A stretch of DNA of 15,640 nt from a virus. A program made the translations under genes and the position numbers. Shown here in pieces: positions 1 to 15,640 of the stretch. How positions within the stretch are numbered: the stretch's first letter is position 1; every line of letters starts with the position of its first letter. Location: the UHGV virus genome UHGV-0333408, one strand, 5' to 3'. The notes below the pieces were generated by a model. The model had not been told where the DNA came from and searched no databases. It was given only the letters and a program-made list of their open reading frames with translations.

Positions 1-120
1 ATATCGAATGTGATTACAATCGGTGGCGGCGGCACAGTTGGTGTGGCGGCCTCAGTCCGGAACAATTTGAAAACAAGAACCTCGCTTAGGCCTGTGTCCA
101 TATTACGTGGGTAGGATCAT

Positions 121-419
121 AATGCGCTGAACTGTGCAGGATGCGAGCTGATTTTTGAAGACAAGATAAGCGGCACAAAGTCCGAAAGGCCGGGACTGAA
201 AAAACTGCTCAGGACATTATCGGCAGGTGACACTCTGGTTGTCTGGAAGCTGCTCGCGCACAGGGACGAATTGGTGGACGTCGTCCCAAACTTACACCAG
301 AACAATGGGCGCAGGCCGGGCGATTAATTGCATCAGGCGTTCCTCGCCAGAAGGTGGCGATCATCTATGATGTTGGTATATCGACACTGTATAAGAAGTT
401 TCCGGTCGGAGATAAATGA
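121..419 (+). pseudogene. Remnant of a Pin/Hin/Gin-family DNA invertase (serine recombinase): N-terminally truncated, with an internal out-of-frame deletion
   Basis: Frame A (121-252) reads NALNCAGCELIFEDKISGTKSERPGLKKLLRTLSAGDTLVVWKL, matching the N-terminal domain of Pin-type invertases from about residue 21. Frame B (about 253-419) reads ARAQGRIGGRRPKLTPEQWAQAGRLIASGVPRQKVAIIYDVGISTLYKKFPVGDK, matching the C-terminal HTH. A stop at 112-114 lies immediately upstream in frame, so the catalytic-serine N-terminus is missing, and about 55 codons between the two blocks are absent with a frame change. Confidence 0.8.
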
Positions 420-439
420 AACCGTAGCACGTCGTATGC
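402..439. repeat. Imperfect direct repeat, copy 1 (CCGGTC..GAAACCGTAGCACGTCGTATGC)
   Basis: Found by eye. Copy 2 at 1436-1468 shares CCGGTC, GAAA(A)CCGTAG, (A)CAC and GTATGC in the same order, about 26 of 33 positions. The two copies bracket the GIY-YIG gene. Confidence 0.5.
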
Positions 440-479
440 AAGAAGATCGTGCTGCGGTTTATGCTTATCACTTAAAGAC

Positions 480-1298
<819 letters not shown>

Positions 1299-3127: not shown

Positions 3128-4342
3128 CTATGATAGTTCAGCGTAAAGCTCTATCAGCTCAGTAATGAATGCTCCGAGCGTTATTAATTCTTCTCTAACT
3201 GCTTCTGGGTATTTTTTATGTAAAGTTGATGGTACAACGAGTCTGACACCCGCATCTTTCATTTCTCGGTATTGTGCTGAAGAAACACCTTCTTGCAGTG
3301 TAAATAAATGTACCTGATGGATTTTATCTGCTTCATTCAGTATCTGACGCCAGCGATCTTTGCAGGTGGTCTTTACTGCCAGCATACGTAAGTTTTCTAC
3401 AGGAAATTCAACGTTATGATATGCCTCTGCTGAAGGAAACAGGAAATCTGGTTTTTTATTACCTTCAGTAACTGCCTGAGTGGAGAAATGCCGTAGTCCG
3501 TGCTCGATAAAAAGCTTCTCTAGGTGAAGTTCAAGTGATTTGCCTGCCCTTGATTTACGTCGATTACTGACAGAGTTGGCTAATGCAATAAACTCATCTA
3601 CAGAATCGAATCCTTTCTTAATAATATCAAGAACATGTAATTCCTCGACGAGTAGAAAAATATCATACTCGACACGCCGACGGTCAATCAGTTGCTCATC
3701 TGGATCCTTGGAGTTTTTAGCATAATGGCCAGCAGCATATTGAATAATTTCGTTTCCAGAAGGAAAACGCTTCTTCCAGTCTTCAGGAATAACATATTTA
3801 TGATTTACTGGAGTTTGCTGAAGAGACAATCCGCCCAAAATTTGTCCGGCAGGGCCGGAAATTAGGGTTCCAGGTATGATTTCGCCAATAGCAGACTCGA
3901 TGATATCCTCTTCATCGGGATTGACGCAGACCCATATATCTACCTCGGAACAGTCAGTGTTCTGTTCGTTTAACCTGAAAGCAAGAATTGTGAGGGCTCC
4001 TGTATTTTCAGGGTTCTGTAATGGACTTCCTCTCCCCCAGCGCGTAATTCTTTTTTCGTTTCGGGTCTTACCAAAATAACGGTTGTTGTAATAAATTGCG
4101 CGTGCTTGGGTATCAGGGCAATCATGGGATGATACATGCGCAGTAAGGAAGACTGAAGGGTTCAGTTCGCGAGTATGATTGATAGATGGAAAAAGCTTTT
4201 CAACGATATTTGAGGGGATATAAAGTCCGACCTGATGGCCACCTGTTGCGCCTGTGTCGTTTGCAGAAAGGCGTTTGATGTAGATAAAGTAATTCCCGCT
4301 TGCGATATCAAGCAGCCAGTTATGAAAAACCGACATATACAT
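3128..4342 (-). CDS. ecoRIIR: Type IIE restriction endonuclease, EcoRII-like, 404 aa
   Basis: 404-codon ORF convergent with the Dcm-like gene. Numbering from the first ATG puts Asp299 in KPDFLF, Lys324 in LAVKTT and Glu337 in ILNEADK, which are the catalytic residues I recall being published for EcoRII. The length equals the recalled 404 aa. A better Shine-Dalgarno (AAGGGA) serves the ATG two codons downstream at 4336, so the start is ambiguous by two codons. Confidence 0.88.
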   Translation of the reverse strand: MYMSVFHNWLLDIASGNYFIYIKRLSANDTGATGGHQVGLYIPSNIVEKLFPSINHTRELNPSVFLTAHVSSHDCPDTQARAIYYNNRYFGKTRNEKRITRWGRGSPLQNPENTGALTILAFRLNEQNTDCSEVDIWVCVNPDEEDIIESAIGEIIPGTLISGPAGQILGGLSLQQTPVNHKYVIPEDWKKRFPSGNEIIQYAAGHYAKNSKDPDEQLIDRRRVEYDIFLLVEELHVLDIIKKGFDSVDEFIALANSVSNRRKSRAGKSLELHLEKLFIEHGLRHFSTQAVTEGNKKPDFLFPSAEAYHNVEFPVENLRMLAVKTTCKDRWRQILNEADKIHQVHLFTLQEGVSSAQYREMKDAGVRLVVPSTLHKKYPEAVREELITLGAFITELIELYAELS

Positions 4343-4412
4343 CCCTTTGTTAACATACAGTCAGGGTTAACATTTTTCCATAGTTATAGATAAGCGGCTA
4401 GGAACTTAAGGG

Positions 4413-4447
4413 AAAAACAAAAAGCCCGCATAAGCGGGCTTTTGTGT
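4413..4447. terminator. Bidirectional rho-independent terminator (AAAAAGCCCGC-ataa-GCGGGCTTTTG)
   Basis: A 6-bp GC stem with a 4-nt loop, flanked by an A-run on the 5' side and a T-run on the 3' side, so it can terminate on both strands. It sits between the att core and the R gene start, insulating the R gene from read-through out of the prophage. Confidence 0.7.
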
Positions 4448-4570
4448 CACTCGAGAGCCGCGGCTCCTTTGCGTATCCTTTTTTGTCTCCTCACCGTCTG
4501 GTCGGTGTCCTGCTGAGACTGCTAACTTCCTGTTTTTGTTGGTGTTGTCCTTACACCGTCCAATCATGAT

Positions 4571-4607
4571 TGGTGGAGCTGGCGGGAGTTGAACCCGAGT
4601 CCGAAAT
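4571..4607 (-). other. 37-bp copy of the 3' end of tmRNA (ssrA), one mismatch; putative prophage att core (attL-type junction)
   Basis: The + strand reads TGGTGGAGCTGGCGGGAGTTGAACCCGAGTCCGAAAT. This is the reverse complement of the E. coli ssrA 3' terminus (...ATTTCGGACGCGGGTTCAACTCCCGCCAGCTCCACCA) with a single C-to-A change. No tmRNA body follows, because 4615-5439 is protein-coding, so this is a partial att-type duplicate and not the gene. Confidence 0.8.
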
Positions 4608-4614
4608 AATTTAA

Positions 4615-5439
4615 CTATTTGTTTTTATTGTAATCGTGTTCATTTATAAAATCTGCGTAGCTTTTGCGTATCCTTTGACGTATTGCAGCAGTCCTACTTT
4701 TATTGAGCTTTTTAAACGTAAAGCTTGCGACATAGTCTATTGAACCATTAAAAGTCTGCGAGTCGACCAATGCGACTTCGGTTTCAAATAATTCAACAAT
4801 ATGTTTACCACCAATATCTTGATATTTTATTTCTAACATTGGTCCTTTAGTTTTATAAATATCGATTTGACCCTTAAGGTTTAGCATTATATCGTTCATT
4901 AAAAAGACTAAGGAAAGTGTTTGAAATTTTAGCTCAGCCTTTGTTTTTTCTACACTGTATGGTAAAAAACATTGTATGAATTCACTTTCCTTATTAATTA
5001 TATGTGTCATCATTCGGAGGTTGCTTCTTGAATAAAAGATTAGGTCGTTGTCACTTTCTTCAAAATGATAATTAAATAAAAATCTAGATGGGTCGGCTGG
5101 AGCTTCAGCGGAATTTAATTTATATAGCCTCTGCTGAAGATATTGTGCATATTCTTGGTGGTTGAAAATCCATTTATACTCGATATTTACAGCAGCACCT
5201 AATCCCGGATTTATTACATTGATTTTATATTCGTTATAAGTATTCCCATTTAAAATGTCTAAATCAAAGTCGTTTTTTACATTGCATTTACCTTTGAAGT
5301 GAAAATTTTGAGGTATGATCTGTGGTCTATACATACTTCTTCTCTGCATTATGGCTTGATAAATACCACAAGCAGCAAGAAATGCTGATATCATTGCAGC
5401 AATGCTGGAAACTACAGCTATCCATCGATCTAAAGTCAT
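4615..5439 (-). CDS. Hypothetical membrane-anchored protein (274 aa), AT-rich moron between att core and int
   Basis: Uninterrupted ORF. One predicted N-terminal transmembrane helix (WIAVVSSIAAMISAFLAACGIY) is followed by a basic stretch (QRRSMYRPQ), suggesting a cytoplasmic C-terminal domain. GC content is visibly much lower than the flanking prophage backbone. No motif I recognise. Confidence 0.7.
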   Translation of the reverse strand: MTLDRWIAVVSSIAAMISAFLAACGIYQAIMQRRSMYRPQIIPQNFHFKGKCNVKNDFDLDILNGNTYNEYKINVINPGLGAAVNIEYKWIFNHQEYAQYLQQRLYKLNSAEAPADPSRFLFNYHFEESDNDLIFYSRSNLRMMTHIINKESEFIQCFLPYSVEKTKAELKFQTLSLVFLMNDIMLNLKGQIDIYKTKGPMLEIKYQDIGGKHIVELFETEVALVDSQTFNGSIDYVASFTFKKLNKSRTAAIRQRIRKSYADFINEHDYNKNK

Positions 5440-5476
5440 AATGAAATCTCTGCCTAAAAGAGACAGAGATTATTTG
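5440..5476 (-). terminator. Hairpin between the int stop and the downstream membrane-protein gene
   Basis: On the minus strand: AATCTCTG-(loop)-CAGAGATT followed by TTTCATT. The position immediately after int fits a terminator or processing site, but the hairpin is weak. Confidence 0.3.
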
Positions 5477-6652
5477 TTATTTTTTGATTGTTTTCAATGC
5501 ATTTGCTGATGTGTTGTTATCGTAATCCTTTAGATACCTACCATAGTGCCTAAATAGCATTTCAGGCCCTTTATGACCCATTTGAGCCGCCAACCAGAAT
5601 AAGTTCACACCACGACTGATTTGTCGAGTCGCGAAGGTATGGCGTGTTTGGTATGGATTTCGGTACCGAATACCAGCCTTTCGCAATGTTGGCACCCATG
5701 CTTTTTTTCTAATTGCATCAGCACTTGCCCAGGGCTTATTGGTCTTTGGATCTTCAAAGACAGTAGCATCCTTCATGAATGTAAATGGCTTCTGGTTTAT
5801 CAACGCCAACATTGCTTCTTCAGTCAGTTCAACTTTACGGGTACCGGCTTTTGTCTTTGTCCCTTTGATAACACCAACAACACTTGCGCTCTGGACATGG
5901 GCAGTTTTCCCAACAAAGTCGATATCTCGCCATCGAAGGGCACATAATTCAGAACTACGCAGGCCTGTATGTATAGCGAACCGGAACAGATTTTCCCATT
6001 GTTTGTTTGCGGCTGCTGCTAGTAATGCATCAACTTCTGCTGGTGATAGCGGATCAACCACGTAGCTGCTTTCTGCTTCTGACTTATCACTTTGGTAGCG
6101 CGAAGCAGTTACTAACGATACGGGGTTAATTTGAAGTACCCCATCGGTCACGGCTTCATCAAGTGCTGACCGCAGGAAAGATAACTGGTTGCGAATGGTT
6201 TTTAAGGTAGTTTTCTGGCTTTGAATCCACGCTTTCAGGGTTGCTGGTGTTAATTCACTTGCAGGGCAAATGTGAAGTGAGGCTAACGCACTACGGCATT
6301 TTTTATAACCACCAATCGTAGAGGGTGAAAGTTTTCTTGTTTCGCAGATTTCAAGATATTCGTCTAGGTACATTTTTACCGTTTTGCCTGCAGCAGCATT
6401 ACCAAAAATTTTCAAACGAGCAGAACTGGGAAAATATTCCGCATAAATGAATGTTCCCCTTTCGATCTTATTATGAATTTCGCCGAGTGTGCGCTCGGCG
6501 TATTTAATGTTCTTTGGTGTTACTTCCAGATTGGAAAGAGGCTCACGACATTTAACACCTTTGTAGGTGAAAGTTATATTGATCGTTTCGCCCTGGCGGT
6601 GTTTCCTGATTGTTACGCCGCGCGGTAGTTTGAGCAGTTTTGTCTGGCCCAT
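5477..6652 (-). CDS. int: Tyrosine-type site-specific integrase (lambda Int family), 391 aa
   Basis: The C-terminal catalytic region has the conserved RHTFAT and FRHYGRY (tyrosine nucleophile) blocks. GAGG lies 8 nt upstream of the ATG. The gene reads toward the ssrA-derived att core, with an excisionase-like gene overlapping its 5' end, as in lambda. Confidence 0.93.
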   Translation of the reverse strand: MGQTKLLKLPRGVTIRKHRQGETINITFTYKGVKCREPLSNLEVTPKNIKYAERTLGEIHNKIERGTFIYAEYFPSSARLKIFGNAAAGKTVKMYLDEYLEICETRKLSPSTIGGYKKCRSALASLHICPASELTPATLKAWIQSQKTTLKTIRNQLSFLRSALDEAVTDGVLQINPVSLVTASRYQSDKSEAESSYVVDPLSPAEVDALLAAAANKQWENLFRFAIHTGLRSSELCALRWRDIDFVGKTAHVQSASVVGVIKGTKTKAGTRKVELTEEAMLALINQKPFTFMKDATVFEDPKTNKPWASADAIRKKAWVPTLRKAGIRYRNPYQTRHTFATRQISRGVNLFWLAAQMGHKGPEMLFRHYGRYLKDYDNNTSANALKTIKK

Positions 6653-6819
6653 TTTGCAACCTCACTAAGATCAATCCACCTCTCCTTAACGCCTTCAACC
6701 TTTAAAACCTGAACACCTTCACGCCAAACACCGCGCTGTACACGTTTGTTTATTGCTTCAGGAGTTTCGCCAGTTTCTTTGCAATAAGTTGAGATAGGAA
6801 CACAATCGAGGTTCAGCAT
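6613..6819 (-). CDS. xis: Excisionase-like small DNA-binding protein (68 aa)
   Basis: Small ORF immediately upstream of int, overlapping it by 40 bp (lambda xis and int overlap in the same way). GGAG lies 6 nt upstream of the ATG at 6819. The ORF track begins at a GTG at 6831. Confidence 0.6.
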   Translation of the reverse strand: MLNLDCVPISTYCKETGETPEAINKRVQRGVWREGVQVLKVEGVKERWIDLSEVAKWARQNCSNYRAA

Positions 6820-6878
6820 ATGTTTCTCCACTTAGCCCGCTGCACATGGGCAGTAATATCAAATTCCAGTCCTGATAA

Positions 6879-7094
6879 TTAATTTTGTTCTCTGGTTGCT
6901 ACTTGTTTTATTGGCCTGATGCTGTCCAGTAGCAGACGGCGACGCATGTTAGGTGCACCCCAACGGTAACCAGTCTTTTTGTCGTAGGATTCACAACGTC
7001 CGGCAACCCAGGACGTTTCAGTGGAATGTAATTTCATCCGCTTTTCACCGTCTCGGGTGATAACAATTCCTGTATGAGTTTTTATCACGCTCAT
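6879..7094 (-). CDS. Hypothetical prophage protein (71 aa)
   Basis: ORF whose start overlaps the stop of the upstream gene (ATGA-type coupling). No recognisable motif. Confidence 0.5.
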   Translation of the reverse strand: MSVIKTHTGIVITRDGEKRMKLHSTETSWVAGRCESYDKKTGYRWGAPNMRRRLLLDSIRPIKQVATREQN

Positions 7095-7453
7095 TTCTTA
7101 GTCTCTGGTGCTTTCGGCATTACTGCCCAGTGAGTGATATTGACGTTTTCAAGGTCCCCGACCTGAAATGTCCACTGCCATTCTCCGGTTTCTTTTTGTC
7201 CCCAGGTGTACCAGAGAGAACGCCAGCCAATCAGCCAGCCTTCTCCGTTAGCATCGAATAACAAAACACTTTCATTTGCTGGTGGCAGTTCAGTTGACAC
7301 TGGTATTACTTTGTTTTCCTGTGCTGCACATTTAGCTTCAAGCGCATCGAATTTACGCACCAGGTATTCAGCATCTGTTTCATTTACTTTCAGATCTCGC
7401 GGTACACATCTCCCACGAAGAAAACCTTCCATTTCGAAAACATTCATGCGCAT
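7091..7453 (-). CDS. yfdS: DUF551-like prophage protein (120 aa), YfdS-like
   Basis: The C-terminal NITHWAVMPKAPE resembles the conserved THW-MPLP-P end of DUF551 proteins. The length matches what I recall for E. coli CPS-53 YfdS. An alternative ATG at 7447 overlaps the upstream stop as ATGA. Confidence 0.55.
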   Translation of the reverse strand: MRMNVFEMEGFLRGRCVPRDLKVNETDAEYLVRKFDALEAKCAAQENKVIPVSTELPPANESVLLFDANGEGWLIGWRSLWYTWGQKETGEWQWTFQVGDLENVNITHWAVMPKAPETKK

Positions 7454-7980
7454 TTGCGTAACTCCGATAACTCGTTAAAGCGTTCCATAAACATCCCGTA
7501 GGCATGGCCCGGTGCCAGTGGAATCACGTTGAACATCTCTGTTGCCGGGATACCTTCCAGTACAGGCCAGAAAGAGCCATCATCAAGCCCGAGATCGCGG
7601 CGTTCGGTTGCCAGCATGATGAGATCGGCATATTTCACGGGCGTACTCATAACCGGGGGTAATCCGTATTTCTCACGGATTACGGAGTCTATTTTTTCTT
7701 CCATTTGTTTATAGTCAGGAAGAAGGCGTTTCAGTGGTGCGGGAATGTCCTGGCAATACGCTTCTGTTGCATCATGCATTAACGCTTCAAAAGCAAATTC
7801 CTGCGGCACCAGCTGGCTGCAAAGAACCGCATGTTGGGCGACGCTGTAGAAGTGCGAAAGATGACCGGCAAAGCGACAGATATTTGAAAGGGAAACCGCG
7901 ATATCGTTAATATCGATGTCGTCTTTATTTATCCTGTCATAATAAAAATGCTTCCCGGAAAAAGTTTTAATAAATGACAT
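7444..7980 (-). CDS. yfdR: HD-domain phosphohydrolase (YfdR-like 5'-nucleotidase family), 178 aa
   Basis: HD-superfamily metal-binding pattern: CRFAGH ... SVAQHA ... MHDATEAY ... D. The start is placed at the ATG at 7980 (GGAG 6 nt upstream) rather than the GTG at 8007, giving 178 aa, the length I recall for K-12 YfdR. Confidence 0.7.
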   Translation of the reverse strand: MSFIKTFSGKHFYYDRINKDDIDINDIAVSLSNICRFAGHLSHFYSVAQHAVLCSQLVPQEFAFEALMHDATEAYCQDIPAPLKRLLPDYKQMEEKIDSVIREKYGLPPVMSTPVKYADLIMLATERRDLGLDDGSFWPVLEGIPATEMFNVIPLAPGHAYGMFMERFNELSELRKCA

Positions 7981-8107
7981 TTTGTTCTCCACGTATATGC
8001 GCTGCACCGCGCTGAATTTGGGTAAAAGGAAGCCCTCACCATCCGGTGATTATTGAGTTAATTACGTTTCCATAAATGCCCCCGCAGGGGCATTTGCAGT
8101 AATGAAA

Positions 8108-8932
8108 TCAGGCGGTGAAAGTACCAATAAAGGTTTCTACTTTGCTGTCCTTGAATTTCTCAACAAGCAGATCACGAAATTCGTTAGCCATTTCTTCCTG
8201 CACCGCCTCCAGCTGAATAATGCGCAGAACCAGTACCGGACGATCGCCAGTGATAATGCTGAGGCGTAATTTAAACGGACGTTCTTTCAGACCTTCAAAC
8301 GGAATGCATTTAAATTCAAATGCCACTGGCATAATGTCTTTGGTCTTCGCTTCGACAGACTCCATCAGGGAGCGTTTGCCGCTGAAGTCATTATCTTCAA
8401 AATCAGCGGTCTGGTTTGCTTCAATCGTGATTTTACGGACCGCCGCAGCCGCTTTTGTTGCCTGAATGGTGTCACCATTAGCATCAAAGCCCACAAGGTA
8501 GTCGGCCCAGTCTTCAATCCATTCTGCCAGTGATTTCTGGGAGTTACGCTCGCCATTAACAGACAACAGAGCAGAGAACGGTGCTGTCTTTTTCAGTTTG
8601 AGAGTGGCGGTGTTATCTGCGTGACCTGGTTCATCAATAGTACCCAGGTTAAGCACACTGACGGCACGCATATTATCAGCATCGATAAAGCAGCGGGTGC
8701 CTTCATCTGCAAGATCTTTAGAATAACGGGTAAAGTCATCGATGCTGGCAGTGGAAAGCGCACCACGGAAACGGAAGCGATTTAAATTAAATTTTTCCAG
8801 ATCATGAATGCGGAAATTCTCAGGCAATGCCACAGCATCGGCACCAATCTTACTGATAATTTCATTAACACCCTGAGCAGAAATAAGGGCATGGATTTGA
8901 TTAATTGCGGTTGCGTCTAAGTTCTGAGACAT
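8108..8932 (-). CDS. yfdQ: Conserved prophage protein, DUF2303 / YfdQ-like (274 aa)
   Basis: Uninterrupted ORF with an RBS. Length and position (upstream of the HD-domain gene) match the yfdQ-yfdR arrangement I recall from K-12 CPS-53. Function unknown. Confidence 0.6.
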
Positions 8933-8997
8933 AATAAGTCCTCACTATATAAAGATATTCAGTGATGAGATAAATAATCAGTTAATTAAGAACGATA

Positions 8998-9360
8998 TTA
9001 ATGACCTGCTGCGCGGAGTTTTCCGTCAGGTTCACCGGCAAGAGTCAGTAATTGTCCCTGGTCTTCCTGCAGAATAGTCAGGCGACCACCGCGATTGACA
9101 TACATCGGCGTTTCGGTGGTGTCTTCTTCGGAAATTTTCCCGCGGTTAGTCGGGCGAACATATGAGAGTTTGTGTTTGATTTTCACACGGTTCTCATCAA
9201 ATGGTTCGATTTCCAGGTTGAGTGAGACCTTACCTTTGGTTTTCGTGTTCATCACACCGGAAGCGACTTCACTGAGAACTGCGCCGATTTTGGTTTCAAA
9301 TACGCCGCCGTCCAGCTCCCCGATAAATGCCTGCACATCAGTACTGCGTTCGCTAGCCAT
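8998..9360 (-). CDS. Hypothetical prophage protein (121 aa), possibly YfdP-like
   Basis: The start is placed at the ATG at 9360, which has AGGAG 7 nt upstream. The longer 182-aa ORF would start in a Cys/Arg-rich stretch with no RBS. Confidence 0.55.
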   Translation of the reverse strand: MASERSTDVQAFIGELDGGVFETKIGAVLSEVASGVMNTKTKGKVSLNLEIEPFDENRVKIKHKLSYVRPTNRGKISEEDTTETPMYVNRGGRLTILQEDQGQLLTLAGEPDGKLRAAGH

Positions 9361-9988
9361 TTTGCTGCTCCTCATCATATCGACCCTGCAAGGCCGGTTG
9401 GTTTCTCCACAAAACAGAGAAGAACACCTGCGGTGGCAGCCGCCCGGATGGATTGGGTTATGAGCCCGTCGTCCGGTGATGCTCTTCTCTGTTTTGTAAA
9501 AAGAGCGGTACCAGCCGGAAGCAAGTGTACAAACTGGTACCGCCAAAGCAGTGGCTGTTGTGGTGACCGGTGCTGATCTCCGGCTTGCGGTTATTTCAGA
9601 CTCTCACGGGCGTTTAATTGCCCCGCCGAACAGCTCTTTTCCGCAATAGCTGCAATGTCTTTCGCGCATCAGCCTGCGCATTCACCACAACGCTGAGAGC
9701 ACTTAGCCAGTTACGGCACCACACTTTGTCGCGGTTCCATAAATGCCCTCATCGTTGCACCCTGGTCTCTTCCCAGGCGTCAAACCGAATCGCCACGCTG
9801 GTTAGGCGTCTTATCAGCATCATCATTGACTTGCACATTCCGGCTACCTGGTTTGTTTGCCCGAGCAAGGAGTGGATTGTCCCCTTTAACGTCACCAGAC
9901 CGCTAACGACGCATGTGCCATACGCCGTGTTACAACCAAATTTTGTTAGTACCTTGTTTGTTGGTCTGGAAAGAAAGATAAAATGAAG

Positions 9989-10027
9989 TTGCGCATTATG
10001 CAAGTGTTTTTATTGCGAGATATGCAA
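9989..10027. promoter_or_regulatory. OL-like operator pair (two TTGC-N7-GCAA dyads) and probable leftward early promoter
   Basis: TTGCGCATTATGCAA (9989-10003) and TTGCGAGATATGCAA (10013-10027) share a dyad pattern with the OR site at 10796-10810. They lie just beyond the cI terminator, where lambda carries OL/pL. Confidence 0.5.
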
Positions 10028-10039
10028 TTTTGTGGGTAA

Positions 10040-10062
10040 TGAAAAGCCACCTTCGGGTGGCT
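10040..10062 (-). terminator. Rho-independent terminator downstream of the cI-like gene
   Basis: On the minus strand: GCCACC-cgaa-GGTGGC followed by TTTTCATT, about 20 nt after the cI stop. Confidence 0.7.
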
Positions 10063-10082
10063 AATTGATGAGGAGGTAAGGG

Positions 10083-10775
10083 TTAATTGTGTCGCTTAAG
10101 GGTTTGTGACTGGCTGATTAAGACCTTTCCAAAGACCATAAACCGGTGTTCATTTTCGCTGGTAATTCCCCATTCACGGTAAATCTGGTTATCAGAAATC
10201 ACCAGTAGTTTGTCAGGTATCATTTGCAGTCGTTTGACATAAATTTTATCATCAAAACCAAATACATAGATACCATCTCCATCAAACTGATTGATACTGA
10301 CATCAACGAAGATGAGATCTCCTGGCTCAATGGTTGGACACATACTGTCCCCACGAACGTTGATAACTTTGATGTGATTGGCTGGTCGTCCGCCGAACAT
10401 TGATACAGCATTATCAGTTCTGTATTCGATGGCATGAATCACATCAATGACATCACCGCCCTGGATAAGGCCATTTCCCGCACTGGCACTGACATCCAGC
10501 ATTTCAATACGGAATACATCCTTCACCTGCGCAACATCCTCACTAATACTGTTTTTACATACAGTATTACTTTTGAAGTCTGAGGTAAAGAGATCAGCAA
10601 TATCAACACCTAAGCTCCTGGCAATATTACTCAGGGCTTGTTCAGTGAATTGTTTCTGCTTACCTGTTTCCAGGCGTGAGATATTCGCCGCATCCACTCC
10701 TATTGCTTCAGCGAGATCGGCGATTTTCATGTTCTTCGCCTGGCGAAGTTGTCTGACTCGATTTCCTATGTTCAT
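10083..10775 (-). CDS. cI-like prophage repressor (HTH_XRE plus S24 LexA-type autopeptidase), 230 aa
   Basis: N-terminal HTH (KIADLAEAIGVDAANISRLETGK). C-terminal S24 peptidase with the Ser nucleophile in RGDSMCPTI and Lys in YVKRL. A candidate Ala-Gly autocleavage site lies in SASAGNG. The gene is divergent from a cro-like gene. Confidence 0.9.
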   Translation of the reverse strand: MNIGNRVRQLRQAKNMKIADLAEAIGVDAANISRLETGKQKQFTEQALSNIARSLGVDIADLFTSDFKSNTVCKNSISEDVAQVKDVFRIEMLDVSASAGNGLIQGGDVIDVIHAIEYRTDNAVSMFGGRPANHIKVINVRGDSMCPTIEPGDLIFVDVSINQFDGDGIYVFGFDDKIYVKRLQMIPDKLLVISDNQIYREWGITSENEHRFMVFGKVLISQSQTLKRHN

Positions 10776-10872
10776 GCGTTTATTACATTTCTTTATTGCG
10801 CGTTAAGCAAATCAACTTGCGCAAAATATTTGCGTGAAATAATATGCTTATCGCGCAATATGTGGAGGTTAT
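10776..10872. promoter_or_regulatory. OR-like divergent promoter and operator region between cI-like and cro-like genes
   Basis: A 97-bp intergenic region holds a TTGC-N7-GCAA dyad (TTGCGCGTTAAGCAA, 10796-10810), a second dyad TTGCGCAAAAT/ATTTGCGTGAA (10817-10838) and a third TTGCGC-containing element (about 10848-10860). Confidence 0.6.
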
Positions 10873-11133
10873 ATGCAATCACCATTACGGAATGTGCGTA
10901 AAGCGCACGGATTTACTTTGCAGCATGTTGCTGCGGGCGTTCAGGTCAATCCAGCGACGCTGAGTCGTATTGAAAGACTGGAACAAATTCCATCTATCGA
11001 CCTTGCAGAACGTCTGGCCAATTTTTTTAAGGGTGAAATCAGCGAAATGCAGATTCTTTATCCGGCACGTTTTCAATCTAGCCAAAACCAGAATGGGTTT
11101 AAACCACAGGAACAGGAGGTAAGCCGTGGGTAA
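10873..11133 (+). CDS. Cro-like HTH transcriptional regulator (86 aa)
   Basis: HTH_XRE signature (GFTLQHVAAGVQVNPATLSRIERLEQ). GGAGG lies 5 nt upstream of the ATG. Divergent from the cI-like gene across the operator region. Confidence 0.8.
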   Translation: MQSPLRNVRKAHGFTLQHVAAGVQVNPATLSRIERLEQIPSIDLAERLANFFKGEISEMQILYPARFQSSQNQNGFKPQEQEVSRG

Positions 11134-11677
11134 GCATCACTGGAAAGTGGAAAAACAACCTGACTGGTACGTGAAAGCTGTCAGAAAAACTATCGCGGCA
11201 TTGCCAGGTGGTTACGCTGAAGCTGCTGATTGGCTGGATGTAACAGAGAACGCATTATTTAATCGCCTTCGTGCCGATGGTGATCAGTTTTTTCCGTTGG
11301 GATGGGCAATGGTTTTACAGCGCGCGGCTGGCACTCACTACATTGCGGATGCTGTCGCACAGTCTGCTGGTGGGGTGTTCGTATCGCTTCCTGAAATTGA
11401 GGAAGTAGAGAACGCCGATATAAACCAGCGCCTGCTGGAAGTCATCGAACAGATCGGGAGTTACTCAAAGCAGATTCGTTCGGCAATCGAAGATGGGGTC
11501 GTGGAGCCACACGAGCAGACAGCAATTAATGATGAGTTGTATCTGTCAATTTCGAAGCTCCAGGAGCATGCAGCACTGGTCTACAAAATCTTTTGCGCTC
11601 CAGAAAAGAGTGACGCCCGCGAGTGTGCAGCTCCGGGCGTCGTGGCGTTTTGTGTCTGTGGAGAAACTAACGCATGA
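11126..11677 (+). CDS. CII-like regulator (CP76 / YdaT-like family), 183 aa
   Basis: GTG start with AGGAGG 7 nt upstream, overlapping the cro stop. Lies immediately downstream of cro, as CII and YdaT homologues do. The family call is from recalled resemblance and position, not a confirmed match. Confidence 0.55.
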   Translation: MGKHHWKVEKQPDWYVKAVRKTIAALPGGYAEAADWLDVTENALFNRLRADGDQFFPLGWAMVLQRAAGTHYIADAVAQSAGGVFVSLPEIEEVENADINQRLLEVIEQIGSYSKQIRSAIEDGVVEPHEQTAINDELYLSISKLQEHAALVYKIFCAPEKSDARECAAPGVVAFCVCGETNA

Positions 11678-12825
11678 ACAGTTTAACGGCAAATAACCGT
11701 TTGTCGCAACAACCGGTGGTCAGCGTCGCTGAACACCGGTTGTTATGGCATGAATGCAGATTACCAAATCACCTGGCTGTAAGTAACCACAGAGAACTTT
11801 ACCTGACTGTGGGGGGCGAGTTGTGCAGGAACTTAACCGCTGGTTTCGTGACGGAAGAGGACTTTATGTTCATGTTATTCGTTGGGAGCCAGAAACACAG
11901 CGCGTTATCTATCTTCGCAAAGACTACCCGCATGAGTGCTTTAGTCCTTTGTGGAAATTCAGGCGTGATTTTGTTGAGTGTGAAGGACCACCAGCACATT
12001 GATTCTGCCATTCCGGGACGTTACACTGTTCAGGCACCTTATAAAACGGGTGCCGGGCGTGGAAACCCGGAATTCACCAAAGCGCACAACCGCGCTCTTG
12101 CGGTTTTTTTGTGTCATGAGCAGCATTACGCCCAAATTATGGTGGGGCGTGCAGGGCCAACTTCGGTTGGGCCGGGTTCTTTGGTGACCGGTATTTCCAC
12201 CCCTGTACGTCTCACCACCAATAAGGTCGTGGAAAGCCTTGGTGGTGAGTTATTAAAAATCACCAAAGAGGCTGCCATCATGGCTACGATCCCAACCCTC
12301 ACTCAACCTGAAATTGCCATCGTTGATGGTCAGGCTGTTACTTCATCCTTGGCTGTTGCCAACTTCTTCTCCAAACGTCATGACGATGTACTGAAAAAGA
12401 TCCGCACGCTTGAATGCTCAGCATCATTCACTGCCCGCAATTTTTCGGTGAGTGATTACACTGATTGCACAGGTCGCAAACTTCCTTGCTACCAAATCAC
12501 ACGCGACGGTTTTGCGTTTCTTGCTATGGGTTTCACGGGTAAACGTGCTGCCCAGTTCAAGGAGGCATACATCAATGCCTTTAACCAGATGGAGAAACAG
12601 CTTTCAAAGCCCTCTGTACCGAGCGACGTTGCACATAACGCCAGCGTTCTCTGTTCCTACATTTCATCAATTCATCAGGTCTGGCTGCAGCAGCTTTATC
12701 CTATGTTGGCAAAAGCCGAATCTCCGCTGGCTGTTAGCTTGTATGACTATATTAATGATGCTTCGGCACTGGCCTGCCTCATAAATTTGTCGCTGAACCC
12801 TTCAGAGGTATGGGGGCGCAAATGA
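11674..12825 (+). CDS. Rha-domain phage regulatory protein (383 aa as read; N-terminal ~200 aa of uncertain coding status)
   Basis: The C-terminal ~180 aa (from the ATG at 12280, which has AAGAGG upstream) reads as a Rha / ORF6N-type domain (PTLTQPEIAIVDGQAVTSSLAVANFFSKRHDDVLKKIR ... ITRDGFAFLAMGFTGKRAAQFKEAYINAF). The N-terminal 200 aa has atypical composition, and an alternative-frame ORF exists at 11823-12002. Confidence 0.6.
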   Translation: MNSLTANNRLSQQPVVSVAEHRLLWHECRLPNHLAVSNHRELYLTVGGELCRNLTAGFVTEEDFMFMLFVGSQKHSALSIFAKTTRMSALVLCGNSGVILLSVKDHQHIDSAIPGRYTVQAPYKTGAGRGNPEFTKAHNRALAVFLCHEQHYAQIMVGRAGPTSVGPGSLVTGISTPVRLTTNKVVESLGGELLKITKEAAIMATIPTLTQPEIAIVDGQAVTSSLAVANFFSKRHDDVLKKIRTLECSASFTARNFSVSDYTDCTGRKLPCYQITRDGFAFLAMGFTGKRAAQFKEAYINAFNQMEKQLSKPSVPSDVAHNASVLCSYISSIHQVWLQQLYPMLAKAESPLAVSLYDYINDASALACLINLSLNPSEVWGRK

Positions 12826-13046
12826 TCCGGAATATTTTCAAACGGTTTACCAATCAGACTTTCCGTTGTCCTCGCCCCGGTCAGTGGTACACCACGCCTG
12901 CAGGGCATGTTCTACGTGTCAGCCTGGTTGACCGTGAATGTCAGAAGGTGATTTGTGAACCGCTGGGCCGTAATTATCGCGTCAGTATGCCGCTTATAGC
13001 CTTTCGCTCCGGAAAAAACATGAAGCATCTCGGAGGTGCAGCATGA
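12822..13046 (+). CDS. Small prophage protein (74 aa)
   Basis: The ATG at 12822 overlaps the upstream stop as ATGA and has GGGGG upstream. It is part of a chain of translationally coupled genes. Confidence 0.5.
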   Translation: MIRNIFKRFTNQTFRCPRPGQWYTTPAGHVLRVSLVDRECQKVICEPLGRNYRVSMPLIAFRSGKNMKHLGGAA

Positions 13047-13861
13047 GTATGGAGCTGATGGTTAAAGCGATGAAAATTCGAGTGGGAAATCCATTGCGAA
13101 AACTGGTTCTGATCAAGCTGGCTGATAATGCCAGCGATCAGGGGGAGTGCTGGCCCAGCTACCAGCATATTGCTGACCAGTGCGAGATTAGCAAACGTTC
13201 TGTGATGAATCATATTGCGGCCCTTTGTGAGTCCGGGCTGGTAAAAAAAGTCACCCGGAAAGGTGAAAAAGGTAACTCAAGTAATATCTATCTCCTTCAT
13301 CTGGATGGTGCAGGAGATTCACTAGGGGGTAGTGCAAATAATTCACTATCTGGTGCAGCAAATTCACCAGGTAGTGCAGGAGTTGCACCAGGGGGTAGTG
13401 CAGGAGATTCACCCAGAACCAGTCACTCTTTTGAACCAGTCAAAGAACCAGTCAATGAACCAATAGCTGTTGGTGCATCAGTTGATGAGTCCGTGCGAGT
13501 TCGTTCAAACCGACCGGAATACTCTCCGGAGTTTGAGCAGGCATGGCTGGCATACCCCAAACGTGCTGGTGGCAATTCAAAATCTGCAGCCTTCAAAGCC
13601 TGGAAAGCCCGTTTGAATGAGGGGGTAAAACCCGAAACCATGCTGGAAGGTGTGAAACGCTACGCGGGCTGGGTATCTGCGATGGGTAACAGCGGCACAC
13701 AATTTGTGAAACAGGCTGTCACGTTCTTTGGTCCGGATCGTCATTTCGAAGAATCCTGGGAAGTTCCTGCGGTATCTGCAGCCAGACGCGAGGACCCGTA
13801 CTTCAAAGCCAGTTACGACAACGTGGACTACAGCCAGATCCCGGCAGGATTCAGGGGGTAA
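13043..13861 (+). CDS. Replication initiator, lambda O-like (N-terminal winged-helix HTH, internal repeat linker), 272 aa
   Basis: The N-terminal RKLVLIKLADNASDQGECWPSYQHIADQCEISKRSVMNHIAALCESGLVKK resembles replication-initiator HTH domains. The middle of the gene is encoded by tandem DNA repeats (iteron-like). The start overlaps the upstream stop as ATGA. Confidence 0.6.
   Translation: MSMELMVKAMKIRVGNPLRKLVLIKLADNASDQGECWPSYQHIADQCEISKRSVMNHIAALCESGLVKKVTRKGEKGNSSNIYLLHLDGAGDSLGGSANNSLSGAANSPGSAGVAPGGSAGDSPRTSHSFEPVKEPVNEPIAVGASVDESVRVRSNRPEYSPEFEQAWLAYPKRAGGNSKSAAFKAWKARLNEGVKPETMLEGVKRYAGWVSAMGNSGTQFVKQAVTFFGPDRHFEESWEVPAVSAARREDPYFKASYDNVDYSQIPAGFRG
13305..13465. repeat. Iteron-like tandem repeats inside the O-like gene (putative prophage replication origin)
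   Basis: About five tandem copies of a ~21-bp unit (GGT(A/G)GTGCAGGAGATTCACC and variants) at 13305-13415, followed by three copies of GAACCAGTCAA at 13418-13460. Lambda also carries its ori iterons inside O. Confidence 0.55.
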
Positions 13862-13863
13862 TC

Positions 13864-14349
13864 ATGAGTCTTTTGAATGAAGTTCAGAAATTCATTGAAG
13901 CCCATCCGGGGTGTACTTCCGGAGACATTGCGGATGCTTTTGCAGGTTACTCACGGCAGCGCGTTCTGCAGTCAGCAAGCAAGTTACGTCAGAGTGGGCG
14001 TGTGGCTCACCGTTGTGAAGGAGATACACGCAGACATTTCCCACGCCTGACTGAGAGAGCGCAGGAGCCGGAACCACAACCAGTTCGTGAAACCAGACCT
14101 GTGCGCAATTTCTATGTCGGCACTAACGATCCCCGGGTGATTTTGTTGACCCGCCAGGCGGAAGAACTGGAGTCCAGGGGCTTATACCGTCGTGCTGCAA
14201 CGGTGTGGATGGCGGCATTCCGTGAAAGCCACTCCCAGCCAGAACGAAACAATTTTCTGGCGCATCGTGAGCGGTGCTTACGGAAAAGCAGCAAGCGCGC
14301 TGCATCGGGTGAAGAGTGGTATCTGTCAGGGAATTACGTGGGGGCTTAA
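13864..14349 (+). CDS. PerC-family-like transcriptional regulator (161 aa)
   Basis: The block AEELESRGLYRRAATVWMA matches the LE.RG.WRRAA.VW signature I recall for PerC/Pch proteins. An N-terminal winged-helix-like region precedes it. Confidence 0.5.
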   Translation: MSLLNEVQKFIEAHPGCTSGDIADAFAGYSRQRVLQSASKLRQSGRVAHRCEGDTRRHFPRLTERAQEPEPQPVRETRPVRNFYVGTNDPRVILLTRQAEELESRGLYRRAATVWMAAFRESHSQPERNNFLAHRERCLRKSSKRAASGEEWYLSGNYVGA

Positions 14350-15002
14350 TGAGTAATAAATATTGCCAGGCGCTGGTGGAGCTGCGGAACAAACCAGCCC
14401 ATGAACTGAAGGAAGTGGGCGATCAGTGGCGCACGCCGGACAACATTTTCTGGGGAATTAACACCCTGTTTGGCCCGTTTGTTCTGGATCTGTTTACTGA
14501 TGGTGATAACGCCAAATGTGCCGCTTATTACACTGCGGAAGACAACGCGCTGGCGCATGACTGGTCAGAACGTCTTGCGGAGCTTAAAGGTGCTGCCTTT
14601 GGTAATCCCCCGTACAGCCGCGCCAGTCAGCATGAGGGGCAATACATCACCGGCATGCGTTACATCATGAAACATGCCAGTGCTATGCGTGATAAAGGCG
14701 GGCGCTATGTTTTCCTGATCAAAGCTGCCACCAGCGAAGTGTGGTGGCCGGAAGATGCAGACCATATTGCTTTTATTCGCGGGCGTATTGGTTTTGAACT
14801 GCCTGTCTGGTTTATCCCGAAAGACGAGAAGCAGGTGCCGACAGGAGCTTTCTTCGCTGGTGCTATTGCTGTTTTTGACAAGACCTGGAAGGGACCGGCA
14901 ATCAGCTACATCGGGCGCGATGAACTTGAGGCATGTGGTGAGGCGTTTCTGGCGCAGGTTCGCCAGCAGGCGGAAAAACTGCTCAGGGAGATGGCGGCAT
15001 GA
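14349..15002 (+). CDS. Phage Dam-like N6-adenine DNA methyltransferase (217 aa)
   Basis: Catalytic NPPY motif (GAAFGNPPYSRAS). The ATG at 14349 overlaps the upstream stop (TAATG) and has GGGGG upstream. The ORF track begins earlier at 14316. Confidence 0.8.
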   Translation: MSNKYCQALVELRNKPAHELKEVGDQWRTPDNIFWGINTLFGPFVLDLFTDGDNAKCAAYYTAEDNALAHDWSERLAELKGAAFGNPPYSRASQHEGQYITGMRYIMKHASAMRDKGGRYVFLIKAATSEVWWPEDADHIAFIRGRIGFELPVWFIPKDEKQVPTGAFFAGAIAVFDKTWKGPAISYIGRDELEACGEAFLAQVRQQAEKLLREMAA

Positions 15003-15325
15003 CGACGTTAACTCAATGCCAGCAGCAGGTGCTGGATATGCTGATTTCTTATCAGAAAGAACGTGGCTTCCCGCCAACCAATCAGGAGGTGGCAACCATG
15101 CTGGGATACCGTTCAGTGAATGCAGCGGTGGAGCATCTTCGAGCACTGGAGAAAAAAGGCGTCATCACGATAAAGCGTGGCGTGGCCAGGGGTATCACTC
15201 TTCATACCGCGGTGAAGGACGACGACAGCGAGGCGGTCGGGATTATCCGCTCACTGCTTGCCGGTAAGGAAAACGCCAGGCTGCGTGCAGCCCACTGGTT
15301 ACATGAGAGGGGCCTGAAAGTATGA
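14999..15325 (+). CDS. LexA DNA-binding-domain-like small protein (108 aa), no peptidase domain
   Basis: LTQCQQQVLDMLISYQKERGFPPTNQEVATMLGYRSVNAAVEHLRALEKKGVI resembles the N-terminal winged-helix of LexA. The start overlaps the Dam stop as ATGA. Confidence 0.6.
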   Translation: MTTLTQCQQQVLDMLISYQKERGFPPTNQEVATMLGYRSVNAAVEHLRALEKKGVITIKRGVARGITLHTAVKDDDSEAVGIIRSLLAGKENARLRAAHWLHERGLKV

Positions 15326-15640
15326 AGCTGATCCTGCCTTTTCCGCCCAGCGTGAACACGTACTGGCGACACCCCAACAAAGGGGCGTTTGCTGGTAAGA
15401 GCCTGATAAGCGCGGCGGGGCGCAAATTCCAGAGCGCGGCGTGTGCAGCAATAGTTGAGCAGTTACGTCGTCTGCCGAAACCAACGTCGGCACCTGCTTC
15501 AGTGGAGATCGTGTTGTTTCCTCCGGATAACCGGATCCGCGATCTGGACAACTATAACAAGGCGCTGTTTGACGCCCTGACCCACGCGGGTGTGTGGGAA
15601 GACGACAGTCAGGTGAAAAGAATGCTGGTGGAGTGGGGAC
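15322..15640 (+). CDS. rusA: RusA-family Holliday-junction resolvase (5' part; continues beyond the window)
   Basis: LPFPPSVNTYWRH ... RDLDNYNKALFDALTHAGVWEDDSQV matches the RusA pattern (LPWPPS.N ... DLDN ... FDAL ... W.DD.QV). The start overlaps the upstream stop as ATGA. The ORF is open to the window edge. Confidence 0.75.
   Translation, partial: MKLILPFPPSVNTYWRHPNKGAFAGKSLISAAGRKFQSAACAAIVEQLRRLPKPTSAPASVEIVLFPPDNRIRDLDNYNKALFDALTHAGVWEDDSQVKRMLVEWG

What the first reader, a model, noticed from the sequence alone, without database searches (positions are those of the whole stretch)
4447..4607. tmRNA 3'-end copy marks a junction between the prophage and the defense islet, with a palindrome over the core edge and a possible small transcript
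The 37-bp ssrA 3'-end copy is not followed by a tmRNA body, so it is an att-type partial duplicate. Integrase reads toward it (lambda-like attL geometry), which implies the intact ssrA lies beyond the far end of the prophage. The R-M and GIY-YIG region on the other side would then belong to a second element or an older islet at the same hotspot, consistent with tandem occupancy. A perfect 14-bp palindrome CCAATCATGATTGG (4560-4573) overlaps the first TGG of the core. The 125 bp between the core and the strong terminator at 4421-4445 could yield a short minus-strand transcript ending at that terminator.
Basis: partly seen in the sequence, partly recalled or inferred. Interest (0 to 1): 0.5.

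Follow-up and report, generated by a model that had tools for sequence, protein, structure and literature searches.

The report
Prophage attachment scar at tmRNA gene
This is the leftover 3' piece of the tmRNA gene (ssrA) that a lambda-like prophage leaves at its integrase end, and the 125 bp beside it is the other arm of the same kind of phage attachment site, not a small RNA gene; it is an ordinary feature of a well-known integration hot spot.

Summary
Window 4571-4607 copies the last 37 nt of E. coli ssrA on the minus strand (36/37 identical, with a perfect 27-nt block) and has no tmRNA body. A tyrosine integrase reads toward it, and a strong terminator lies 125 bp away.

The integrase is 87% identical to that of the isolated ssrA-integrating lambdoid phage LLS. 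That phage's attP region has the same gene order and is 89% identical in DNA.

The 125-bp stretch plus terminator is the integrase-distal att arm. It also serves as the ssrA 3' trailer and terminator when it lies next to intact ssrA. It carries tandem repeats that recur on the integrase-proximal arm at a conserved 195-196 bp spacing, and these repeats change in concert in the divergent phage LMessi.

The EcoRII-type R-M and PD-T4-3 genes form the end cassette of an LLS-type prophage. In more than 200 complete E. coli genomes this cassette abuts intact ssrA. Here its invertase gene is broken by IS3. Tandem occupancy with an older, decayed resident is therefore the favoured reading (about 0.7). 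A single element in attP form is not excluded.

The 14-bp palindrome is at chance level and is not the crossover site. No promoter supports an independent small transcript.

The parts
1..119 (+). Right end of IS3, inserted into the invertase gene
   Evidence: 100% identity to the IS3-like element; 12,809 places in E. coli genomes
120..419 (+). Remnant of a pinE/Fin-type serine DNA invertase gene, cut at its 5' end by IS3 and carrying an internal deletion of about 199 bp near 250
   Evidence: Matches annotated pinE in two pieces that span 560 bp in the records against 361 bp here; sequence read
417..459 (.). 40-bp hairpin element just after the invertase stop codon; left boundary of the defence cassette
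   Evidence: Similarity to loci with other left-hand neighbours starts at 419. A second copy bounds the cassette at non-ssrA sites
480..1253 (-). PD-T4-3 / LEM-3-like GIY-YIG defence nuclease gene
   Evidence: PADLOC PD-T4-3, E = 8.7e-140; Pfam PF22945
1618..3093 (+). C5 cytosine DNA methyltransferase gene (Dcm/EcoRII-M type)
   Evidence: PF00145 plus PF18284; PADLOC MTase_II
3128..4342 (-). EcoRII-type type II restriction endonuclease gene
   Evidence: PF09217 plus PF09019; PADLOC REase_II
4420..4443 (-). Intrinsic terminator at the outer end of the integrase-distal att arm. It ends the ssrA precursor where this arm abuts ssrA. Here it would end integrase-side transcripts before the restriction gene (inferred)
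   Evidence: 10-bp stem followed by TGTTTTT. Compensatory stem changes among copies. Phages LLS and LMessi have a terminator at the same place
4446..4570 (-). Integrase-distal att arm (equivalent to the lambda P arm), which is also the ssrA 3' trailer
   Evidence: 99.7% identical to the stretch next to intact ssrA in more than 200 genomes. 89% identical to the phage LLS attP region. 91% identical to the stretch after psaA in K-12
4457..4481 (+). Tandem candidate arm-type integrase sites on the distal arm (GCCGCGGCTCC then TTTGCGTATCC, about 11-bp period). The first includes the 12-bp palindrome GAGCCGCGGCTC at 4455-4466
   Evidence: Exact 14-mer repeated at 4663-4676. Spacing conserved at 195-196 bp in L002 and L003. 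The motif changes in concert on both arms in phage LMessi
4523..4541 (+). Core-proximal repeat TAACTTCCTGTTTTTGTTG; candidate site for a bending or accessory protein
   Evidence: Partner at 4612-4630, spacing 89 bp in the window and in L003. 0.03 matches expected by chance. The AAAAACAGnAAGTTA core is conserved in Xenorhabdus, Proteus and Providencia
4560..4573 (.). Perfect 14-bp palindrome CCAATCATGATTGG spanning the CCA end
   Evidence: Present, but 1.1 expected per window. Broken in L002 and E. albertii, absent in LMessi and in type-B trailers
4571..4607 (-). Displaced 3' fragment of ssrA (att core). The T-loop at 4587-4593, flanked by GCGGG (4582-4586) and CCCGA (4594-4598), is the presumed strand-exchange region
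   Evidence: The crossover is confined to 4571-4597 because the same prophage abuts unrelated trailers immediately after CCA
4612..4630 (+). Core-proximal repeat TAACTATTTGTTTTTATTG on the integrase-proximal arm
4652..4676 (+). Tandem candidate arm-type integrase sites on the integrase-proximal arm (TCTGCGTAGCT then TTTGCGTATCC), inside the 3' end of ORF 4615-5439
4615..5439 (-). 274-aa protein of unknown function with a hydrophobic N-terminus, lying between the integrase gene and the att core
   Evidence: No Pfam or PADLOC match. 25% identical to LLS gp31, which sits in the same position. The exact protein is found in at least 24 contigs, always next to this integrase
5477..6652 (-). Tyrosine integrase with an N-terminal arm-binding domain
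   Evidence: PF12167 plus PF00589; 87% identical to phage LLS Int
6613..6831 (-). Putative excisionase
   Evidence: 88% identical to LLS gp33, annotated as putative excisionase; no Pfam match
6879..15640 (.). Early region of the lambdoid prophage: yfdR/yfdQ/yfdP-type genes, CI-like repressor, Rha/Ash antirepressor with C4 and isrK RNAs, replication genes
   Evidence: 97.7% identical to phage mEp460 over 7047-15640; Pfam; Rfam

Best explanation
Window 4571-4607 is the displaced 3' fragment of the tmRNA gene. It was left when an LLS-type lambdoid prophage (integrase 5477-6652, putative excisionase 6613-6831, early region to the right) integrated by site-specific recombination within the ssrA 3' end (4571-4597), most likely in its T-loop. 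The intact ssrA should lie one prophage length to the right of the window.

What lies to the left is whatever followed ssrA before that event. Here it is the integrase-distal att arm, terminator and end cassette (EcoRII-type R-M plus PD-T4-3) of an earlier prophage of the same att family. That earlier prophage is now decaying: its invertase gene is cut by IS3 and has an internal deletion. The junction therefore happens to carry both att arms, like an attP.

The 125-bp stretch is that distal arm. It carries tandem integrase arm-type sites and a core-proximal protein-binding motif. Phages of this family place an intrinsic terminator at its outer end, so after integration the arm replaces the 3' trailer and terminator of ssrA. 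In the window the terminator most likely stops integrase-side transcripts before the restriction gene.

Shown here: the sequence identities, the gene order, the repeats and their change in concert, and the variable left flanks. Inferred: integrase binding to the repeats, a T-loop crossover, the order of the two integrations, and which transcripts the terminator stops.
For: - Fragment and lack of a tmRNA body.
- Integrase domains. Int is 87% and the excisionase candidate 88% identical to phage LLS.
- The LLS genome has the order tail fibre, invertase, accessory genes, terminator plus trailer, annotated 'tmRNA pseudogene'/attP, ORF, int, xis. Its DNA is 89% identical to window 4419-4621. Its authors deduce integration into the ssrA 3' end from a 29-bp identity (PMC12315714).
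- The same ORF and integrase abut the glaH flank, the ypjA flank or P4-like integrase islands in other genomes. Identity to the window ends exactly at the CCA end.
- Window 4300-4607 is 99.7% identical to the stretch next to intact ssrA in many genomes (203 records at 99% or more). There it ends a prophage with the order lom, tail fibre, tail-fibre assembly, GIY-YIG, MTase, REase.
- In AZ146 one prophage of about 45 kb has this cassette at the ssrA end and a 94%-identical integrase at the other end.
- Arm repeats: an exact 14-mer on both arms, spacing 195-196 bp in three variants, and a second repeat pair with 0.03 expected by chance.
- In phage LMessi both arms carry a different tandem motif at the aligned positions: CACGTGCAT twice on one arm and AAGTGCAT twice on the other.
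- Lineage-specific tandem motifs occur in the distal arm in Xenorhabdus, Proteus and Providencia.
- Decay of the left element: IS3 and the deleted invertase.
- K-12 precedent: psaA followed by the same trailer at the right end of CP4-57.
Against: - The far end of the prophage and the intact ssrA are outside the window and cannot be checked for this genome.
- None of 5,426 complete E. coli genomes has a restriction-gene/trailer/core/integrase-proximal-arm junction with either arm type tested. The tandem arrangement is inferred, not seen elsewhere.
- The arrangement is collinear with the attP region of a free phage (LLS), so one element in attP form would look the same.
- No binding or recombination data exist for the proposed sites.
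Confidence: 0.7

Rival explanations
1. The window is one element in attP form: a circular, permuted or just-excised LLS-type phage genome whose own accessory region carries the R-M and PD-T4-3 cassette. On this reading 4571-4607 is the phage's attP core, not a junction between two elements.
For: The gene order is collinear with free phage LLS across attP. AZ146 shows that a single prophage can carry both this cassette and a 94%-identical integrase. Both att arms with matching repeats are present. The junction is absent from 5,426 complete chromosomes. IS elements do occur in inducible phages, for example IS629 in Stx2a_WGPS2.
Against: The invertase gene is both cut by IS3 and internally deleted, which points to decay in a chromosome. 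The junction was not found in the viral contig collection or in phage records. The same integrase module occurs elsewhere as a chromosomal prophage with other left flanks.
Confidence: 0.2
2. The 125 bp between the core and the terminator encode an independent small minus-strand RNA of about 120-150 nt, or a small protein.
For: A strong minus-strand terminator. The 198-nt fold has z = -3.0. One palindromic stem, GAGCCGCGGCTC versus GAGTCGCGACTC, shows a paired change. An ATG at 4567 opens a 53-codon frame (read from the sequence).
Against: No sigma-70-like promoter on the minus strand between 4445 and 5469. No Rfam family reaches its gathering score. Conservation is explained by att-arm repeats that recur on the other arm and change in concert in LMessi. 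The ATG and the frame are not kept in other genera, single-base indels shift the frame in K-12 and L002, and no Shine-Dalgarno sequence precedes the ATG. Next to intact ssrA the stretch is simply the precursor trailer.
Confidence: 0.03
3. The 14-bp palindrome over the CCA end is a functional site: the integrase core-binding inverted repeat or crossover point, or a hairpin that guides 3' processing of the tmRNA precursor.
For: It is the only perfect 14-bp palindrome in the window. It is kept in LLS, K-12 and most E. coli copies. Xenorhabdus, Proteus and Providencia have a different palindrome, ACCAAATTTGGT, over the CCA end.
Against: 1.1 are expected per window. It is broken in L002 and E. albertii, and absent in LMessi, Enterobacter soli, Arsenophonus and all type-B trailers. 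The palindrome in the other genera is centred 2 nt away. The same prophage joins type-B trailers directly after CCA, so exchange happens inside ssrA and not at the palindrome.
Confidence: 0.06

Closest known systems
attP of Escherichia phage LLS (PQ299149.1; Genome Res 2025, PMC12315714)
   Same: Int is 87% identical and the excisionase candidate 88% identical. An ORF lies between int and the core in both. The ssrA 3' fragment, trailer arm and terminator are 89% identical in DNA. An invertase gene and accessory genes lie on the far side.
   Different: LLS is a free phage with an intact invertase and different accessory genes. The window carries the EcoRII-type R-M and PD-T4-3 cassette and an IS3-broken invertase. 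The integrase-proximal arm and the 274-aa ORF have diverged (25% identity).
psaA (b4645), the ssrA 3' pseudogene at the right end of cryptic prophage CP4-57 in E. coli K-12
   Same: A displaced ssrA 3' fragment marks the distal end of an element integrated at ssrA. It is followed by the same trailer and terminator, 91% identical.
   Different: psaA is 14 nt long and lacks one T. It was made by a P4-type integrase (IntA) that lies next to ssrA and reads away from it. Excision of CP4-57 damages ssrA (PMC10107115). Here the fragment is 37 nt and the integrase is LLS-type and distal. The single mismatch lies outside the exchanged part, so excision should leave ssrA unchanged (inferred).
Bacteriophage lambda attP, with the int-proximal attL geometry and the tI/sib region beyond the P arm (own knowledge)
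   Same: The integrase has an arm-binding domain and reads toward the core. Arm-type repeats lie on both sides at a scale of about 60-130 bp. A terminator lies just beyond the distal arm.
   Different: The core lies inside a tmRNA gene T-arm rather than in an intergenic attB. The distal arm is homologous to the host flank. No evidence for sib-like retroregulation was obtained.
Tandem genomic islands at tRNA and tmRNA genes (Islander database, PMC4383910; Williams 2003, own knowledge, paper not held)
   Same: The integrating element restores the target gene and the displaced fragment marks its end. Repeated use of ssrA builds arrays: up to 5 copies of this trailer and core per E. coli genome, and P4-like islands lie behind the same prophage.
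   Different: Nothing in principle. This particular pairing, an LLS-type prophage in front of the R-M/PD-T4-3 cassette, was not found in 5,426 complete genomes.

Membership tests
Displaced target-gene fragment at the end of an integrated element (att junction at a tRNA or tmRNA gene) | The fragment matches the 3' end of the target gene and lacks the rest of the gene | tested here: met
   36 of 37 identical, 27 nt exact; no tmRNA body
Displaced target-gene fragment at the end of an integrated element (att junction at a tRNA or tmRNA gene) | A tyrosine integrase gene lies next to the fragment, inside the element | tested here: met
   Int at 5477-6652 with PF00589 and PF12167, 870 bp from the core
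Displaced target-gene fragment at the end of an integrated element (att junction at a tRNA or tmRNA gene) | The same element is found with different sequence beyond the fragment | tested here: met
   L005-L012 show the glaH flank, the ypjA flank or P4-like islands; identity ends at the CCA end
Displaced target-gene fragment at the end of an integrated element (att junction at a tRNA or tmRNA gene) | The intact target gene lies at the other end of the element in the same genome | not testable with these tools
   It is outside the window. It is met in the relative AZ146, where ssrA lies about 45 kb from the integrase end
LLS-type ssrA-integrating lambdoid phages | Closely related integrase and excisionase, and the same att region | tested here: met
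   87% and 88% protein identity; 89% DNA identity over 4419-4621
Lambda-type attP (complex att site with arms) | Integrase with an N-terminal arm-binding domain | tested here: met
   PF12167, E = 4.6e-23
Lambda-type attP (complex att site with arms) | Arm-type repeats on both sides of the core, distinct from the core sequence | tested here: met
   TTTGCGTATCCTTT at 4468-4481 and 4663-4676, each with a tandem partner. Spacing is conserved in three variants. The motif changes in concert on both arms in LMessi
Lambda-type attP (complex att site with arms) | Integrase and accessory proteins bind these sites, and recombination depends on them | not testable with these tools
   Needs footprinting and recombination assays
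Functional tmRNA gene | Complete tRNA-like domain, tag reading frame and pseudoknots | tested here: not met
   ARAGORN finds none; Rfam gives 34.7 bits against 47, 5'-truncated
Independent small RNA gene | Own promoter upstream of the terminator | tested here: not met
   No promoter-like site on the minus strand between 4445 and 5469. This is a consensus scan only
Independent small RNA gene | Match to a described RNA family | tested here: not met
   All Rfam matches in 4350-4700 other than tmRNA fall below their gathering scores and rest on the terminator hairpin

The most novel reading that the evidence does not exclude
The defence cassette (PD-T4-3, methyltransferase, EcoRII-type endonuclease) together with the distal att arm and the first 23 nt of the ssrA fragment (window 419-4593) may be a unit that the phage integrase itself moves between prophages. 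At non-ssrA sites, in 273 complete genomes, the cassette ends exactly at the edge of the T-loop (4593/4594). There it is joined to a hairpin element whose start (TGAAACCG) resembles the core (TGAACCCG). This is what an integrase-made mini-circle inserting at a secondary site would leave. Ordinary microhomology-mediated recombination between prophages fits the data equally well.
Probability: 0.15. Interest if true: 0.55.

Novelty: new member of a known kind. Interest (0 to 1): 0.22.

Why it matters
The result fixes one end of a prophage to within 27 bp. It shows that the R-M and PD-T4-3 genes are cargo of a neighbouring, older prophage rather than a free-standing islet, and it removes a false small-RNA lead.

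More generally, LLS-type phages carry a replacement 3' trailer and terminator for the host tmRNA gene inside their att arm. The sequence following ssrA in most E. coli, including the stretch after psaA in K-12, therefore looks like a fossil phage att arm. This helps in annotating the ssrA hot spot but does not change how such sites are understood.

Tried and rejected
- Finding the source or the same junction. No complete E. coli genome covers 80% or more of 4300-4700 or 4400-6700. A chimeric query with the AZ146-type integrase-proximal arm also found none. An exact junction pattern gave no match in viral contigs. Phage records cover only 7047-15640, or the att region alone.
- CP057893.1, which carries the same integrase module, is not in the annotated collection. 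The ssrA-proximal end of this exact prophage could therefore not be read.
- Williams 2003 could not be fetched. It is cited from my own knowledge only.
- Small ORF in the trailer (53 codons from the ATG at 4567): rejected. There is no Shine-Dalgarno sequence, frame-shifting indels occur in K-12 and L002, and the ATG is missing in other genera.
- RNA-hairpin reading of GAGCCGCGGCTC: one paired change supports a palindrome constraint. In other genera and in LMessi, however, the position holds a tandem direct repeat. I therefore treat it as a protein-binding site. The paired change remains unexplained.
- Lambda-sib-like retroregulation by the terminator: considered but not testable. A homologous trailer follows the integrase end in single lysogens as well, so no difference between phage and prophage states is evident.
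- The truncated invertase ORF has no usable start codon, so it could not be used to trace the source lineage.

Full report
**What is in the sequence**

Window 4571-4607 reads TGGTGGAGCTGGCGGGAGTTGAACCCGAGTCCGAAAT. Compared with intact ssrA from E. coli genomes fetched here, it is the reverse complement of the last 37 nt of the tmRNA gene. There is one difference: A4598, where ssrA has C. The first 27 nt (4571-4597) are identical. To the right the sequence departs at once from ssrA. ARAGORN finds no tmRNA gene, and Rfam at gathering score finds none. A permissive local scan gives only a 5'-truncated tmRNA match of 34.7 bits against a gathering score of 47. In that alignment the mismatch breaks the outermost pair of the T stem. 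The T-loop is at 4587-4593, flanked by GCGGG (4582-4586) and CCCGA (4594-4598).

The terminator is real: stem 4420-4443 on the minus strand, 10 pairs, followed by TGTTTTT. The palindrome CCAATCATGATTGG at 4560-4573 is real too. Perfect 14-bp palindromes, however, occur 1.1 times per resampled window (first-order Markov), and 65% of resampled windows have at least one.

**Genes around it**

To the right, all on the minus strand:
- a 274-aa ORF with no family match (4615-5439);
- a tyrosine integrase with an arm-binding N-domain (5477-6652; PF12167 and PF00589);
- a 72-aa ORF overlapping the integrase start.

From 7047 to the end, the window is 97.7% identical to the early region of lambdoid phage mEp460.

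To the left:
- an EcoRII-type endonuclease (3128-4342);
- a Dcm-type methyltransferase (1618-3093);
- a GIY-YIG protein that matches the defence protein PD-T4-3 over its full length, E = 8.7e-140 (480-1253);
- a pinE-type invertase gene with an internal deletion of about 199 bp, cut at its 5' end by the right end of IS3 (window 1-119, 100% identical to IS3).

**The right-hand element ends in the core**

The exact 274-aa protein occurs on many E. coli contigs, always next to the same integrase and early genes. The DNA beyond the ssrA fragment differs between contigs:
- a trailer followed by glaH-lhgO-gabDTP (L011, L012);
- a trailer followed by the ypjA region (L007-L009);
- a P4-type integrase island with an unrelated, shorter trailer of the kind that follows ssrA in K-12 (L005, L006, L010).

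Identity to the window stops exactly at the CCA end in the contigs with the unrelated trailer. The recombination point therefore lies inside 4571-4597, and whatever lies to the left was there before integration. This also rules out the palindrome, which lies mostly in the trailer, as the crossover site.

**The left-hand block is the end of another prophage**

Window 4300-4607 is 99.7% identical to the stretch lying directly next to intact ssrA in many complete E. coli genomes (203 records at 99% or more). In those genomes the order is lom, tail fibre, tail-fibre assembly, GIY-YIG, methyltransferase, endonuclease, trailer, ssrA, smpB.

In strain AZ146 the other end of that prophage lies about 45 kb away. 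It has an integrase gene 94% identical in DNA to the window's, then an ssrA fragment, a trailer and glaH.

**The 125-bp stretch is an att arm**

The isolated phage LLS (PQ299149.1) has, in one free genome, the order tail fibre, Fin invertase, accessory genes, terminator, trailer, annotated 'tmRNA pseudogene'/attP, ORF, integrase, putative excisionase. Its DNA is 89% identical to window 4419-4621. Its integrase and excisionase candidate are 87% and 88% identical to the window's. Its authors deduce integration into the ssrA 3' end from a 29-bp identity (PMC12315714). The trailer and terminator are therefore phage-borne.

They carry repeats that recur on the integrase side:
- TTTGCGTATCCTTT at 4468-4481 and 4663-4676. 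These are the only exact copies in the window. Each follows a degenerate partner 11 bp before it.
- The spacing of 195-196 bp is kept in two diverged variants, L002 and L003.
- A second pair, TAACTTCCTGTTTTTGTTG and TAACTATTTGTTTTTATTG, brackets the core at 89 bp spacing, with 0.03 expected by chance.

In the divergent ssrA phage LMessi, the aligned positions on both arms hold a different tandem motif: CACGTGCAT twice on one arm and AAGTGCAT twice on the other. In distal arms next to ssrA in Xenorhabdus, Proteus and Providencia, the tandem motif again differs by lineage, while AAAAACAGnAAGTTA stays the same.

Repeats that change together on both arms are what arm-type integrase sites do. This is comparative evidence, not binding data. 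By lambda naming, the integrase-side arm is P' and the trailer is P. Every member examined ends the distal arm with an intrinsic terminator. After integration the phage thus supplies ssrA with a new trailer and terminator.

**The host flank**

In K-12, the right end of CP4-57 carries psaA, a 14-nt ssrA fragment lacking one T. It is followed by the same trailer (91% identical, including the palindrome and the terminator), then ypjA and the invertase pseudogene pinH. The usual E. coli sequence after ssrA therefore looks like an old arm of this phage family. About 4,870 of 5,426 genomes hold at least one copy, and some hold up to five.

**Model**

An LLS-type prophage integrated into ssrA. At that time ssrA was followed by the distal arm and defence cassette of an earlier, related prophage. 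The window shows the distal junction: the integrase-proximal arm, the displaced fragment, then the older element's arm, terminator and cassette.

The A4598 mismatch lies on the phage side of the T-loop, so neither integration nor excision should alter ssrA (inferred). This contrasts with CP4-57, whose excision deletes T357 and inactivates tmRNA (PMC10107115).

No promoter-like site lies on the minus strand between 4445 and 5469. The terminator most likely ends transcripts that come from the integrase side and shields the restriction gene. Where the arm abuts ssrA, it ends the tmRNA precursor.

**What remains open**

The junction has both arms and is collinear with a free phage's attP. A single element in attP form would therefore look the same within 15.6 kb. 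The IS3 insertion and the deletion in the invertase gene favour a decaying chromosomal resident, so I favour tandem occupancy at about 0.7. The exact junction was not found in 5,426 complete genomes, in viral contigs or in phage records. Only the full assembly can settle the question.

**Side observation**

The cassette 419-4593 travels as a unit into prophages at other sites, for example ones bounded by a tRNA-Thr fragment. It takes the trailer and 23 nt of ssrA with it. It ends exactly at the edge of the T-loop, against a hairpin element that also sits after the invertase stop codon (window 417-459). The hybrid junction is present in 273 complete genomes. Microhomology (TGAA) or an integrase-mediated secondary-site event could both produce this, and I could not separate the two.

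**Verdict**

The att and tandem reading is largely right. The palindrome and small-transcript ideas are not supported. The feature is a new member of a well-known kind.

Noticed in passing
window 419-4593; L016, L018, L020, L019, L022: The PD-T4-3, methyltransferase and EcoRII-type cassette moves as a unit, together with the ssrA trailer and 23 nt of ssrA, into prophages at non-ssrA sites. It ends exactly at the T-loop edge, against a 40-bp hairpin element that also follows the invertase stop codon. The hybrid junction is present in 273 complete E. coli genomes.
   Followed up: partly
window 4615-5439: A 274-aa protein with a hydrophobic N-terminus lies between int and the att core. It has no Pfam or PADLOC match and is only 25% identical to the protein in the same position in phage LLS. 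It also differs among related prophages. It may be a fast-evolving exclusion or defence gene.
   Followed up: partly
window 12034-12222: isrK (67.9 bits) and C4 antisense RNA (83.6 bits) lie side by side inside the Ash/Rha antirepressor-like ORF 11674-12825. This resembles a P1/P7-style antirepressor control module in a lambdoid early region.
   Followed up: no
window 1-419: The right end of IS3 is inserted into a pinE-type invertase gene that also has an internal deletion of about 199 bp.
   Followed up: yes
L105 (K-12 2777972-2778146) and L003: In K-12, psaA is followed by the same trailer and terminator, then ypjA and the invertase pseudogene pinH. The usual E. coli flank of ssrA therefore looks like the fossil of an LLS-type prophage end.
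   Followed up: partly
window 4455-4466 versus L002: The 12-bp palindrome GAGCCGCGGCTC becomes GAGTCGCGACTC in the AZ146-type copy. This mirrored double change keeps the palindrome. It is not explained by the tandem-repeat reading of this position.
   Followed up: partly
L104 (phage Ayreon, MF807953.1): Phage Ayreon carries the distal att arm (85.8% identical to window 4447-4566) joined to a different core and a different integrase. The break lies at CCAATCA, just at the ssrA end, which suggests that an integrase module was swapped beside a retained arm.
   Followed up: no
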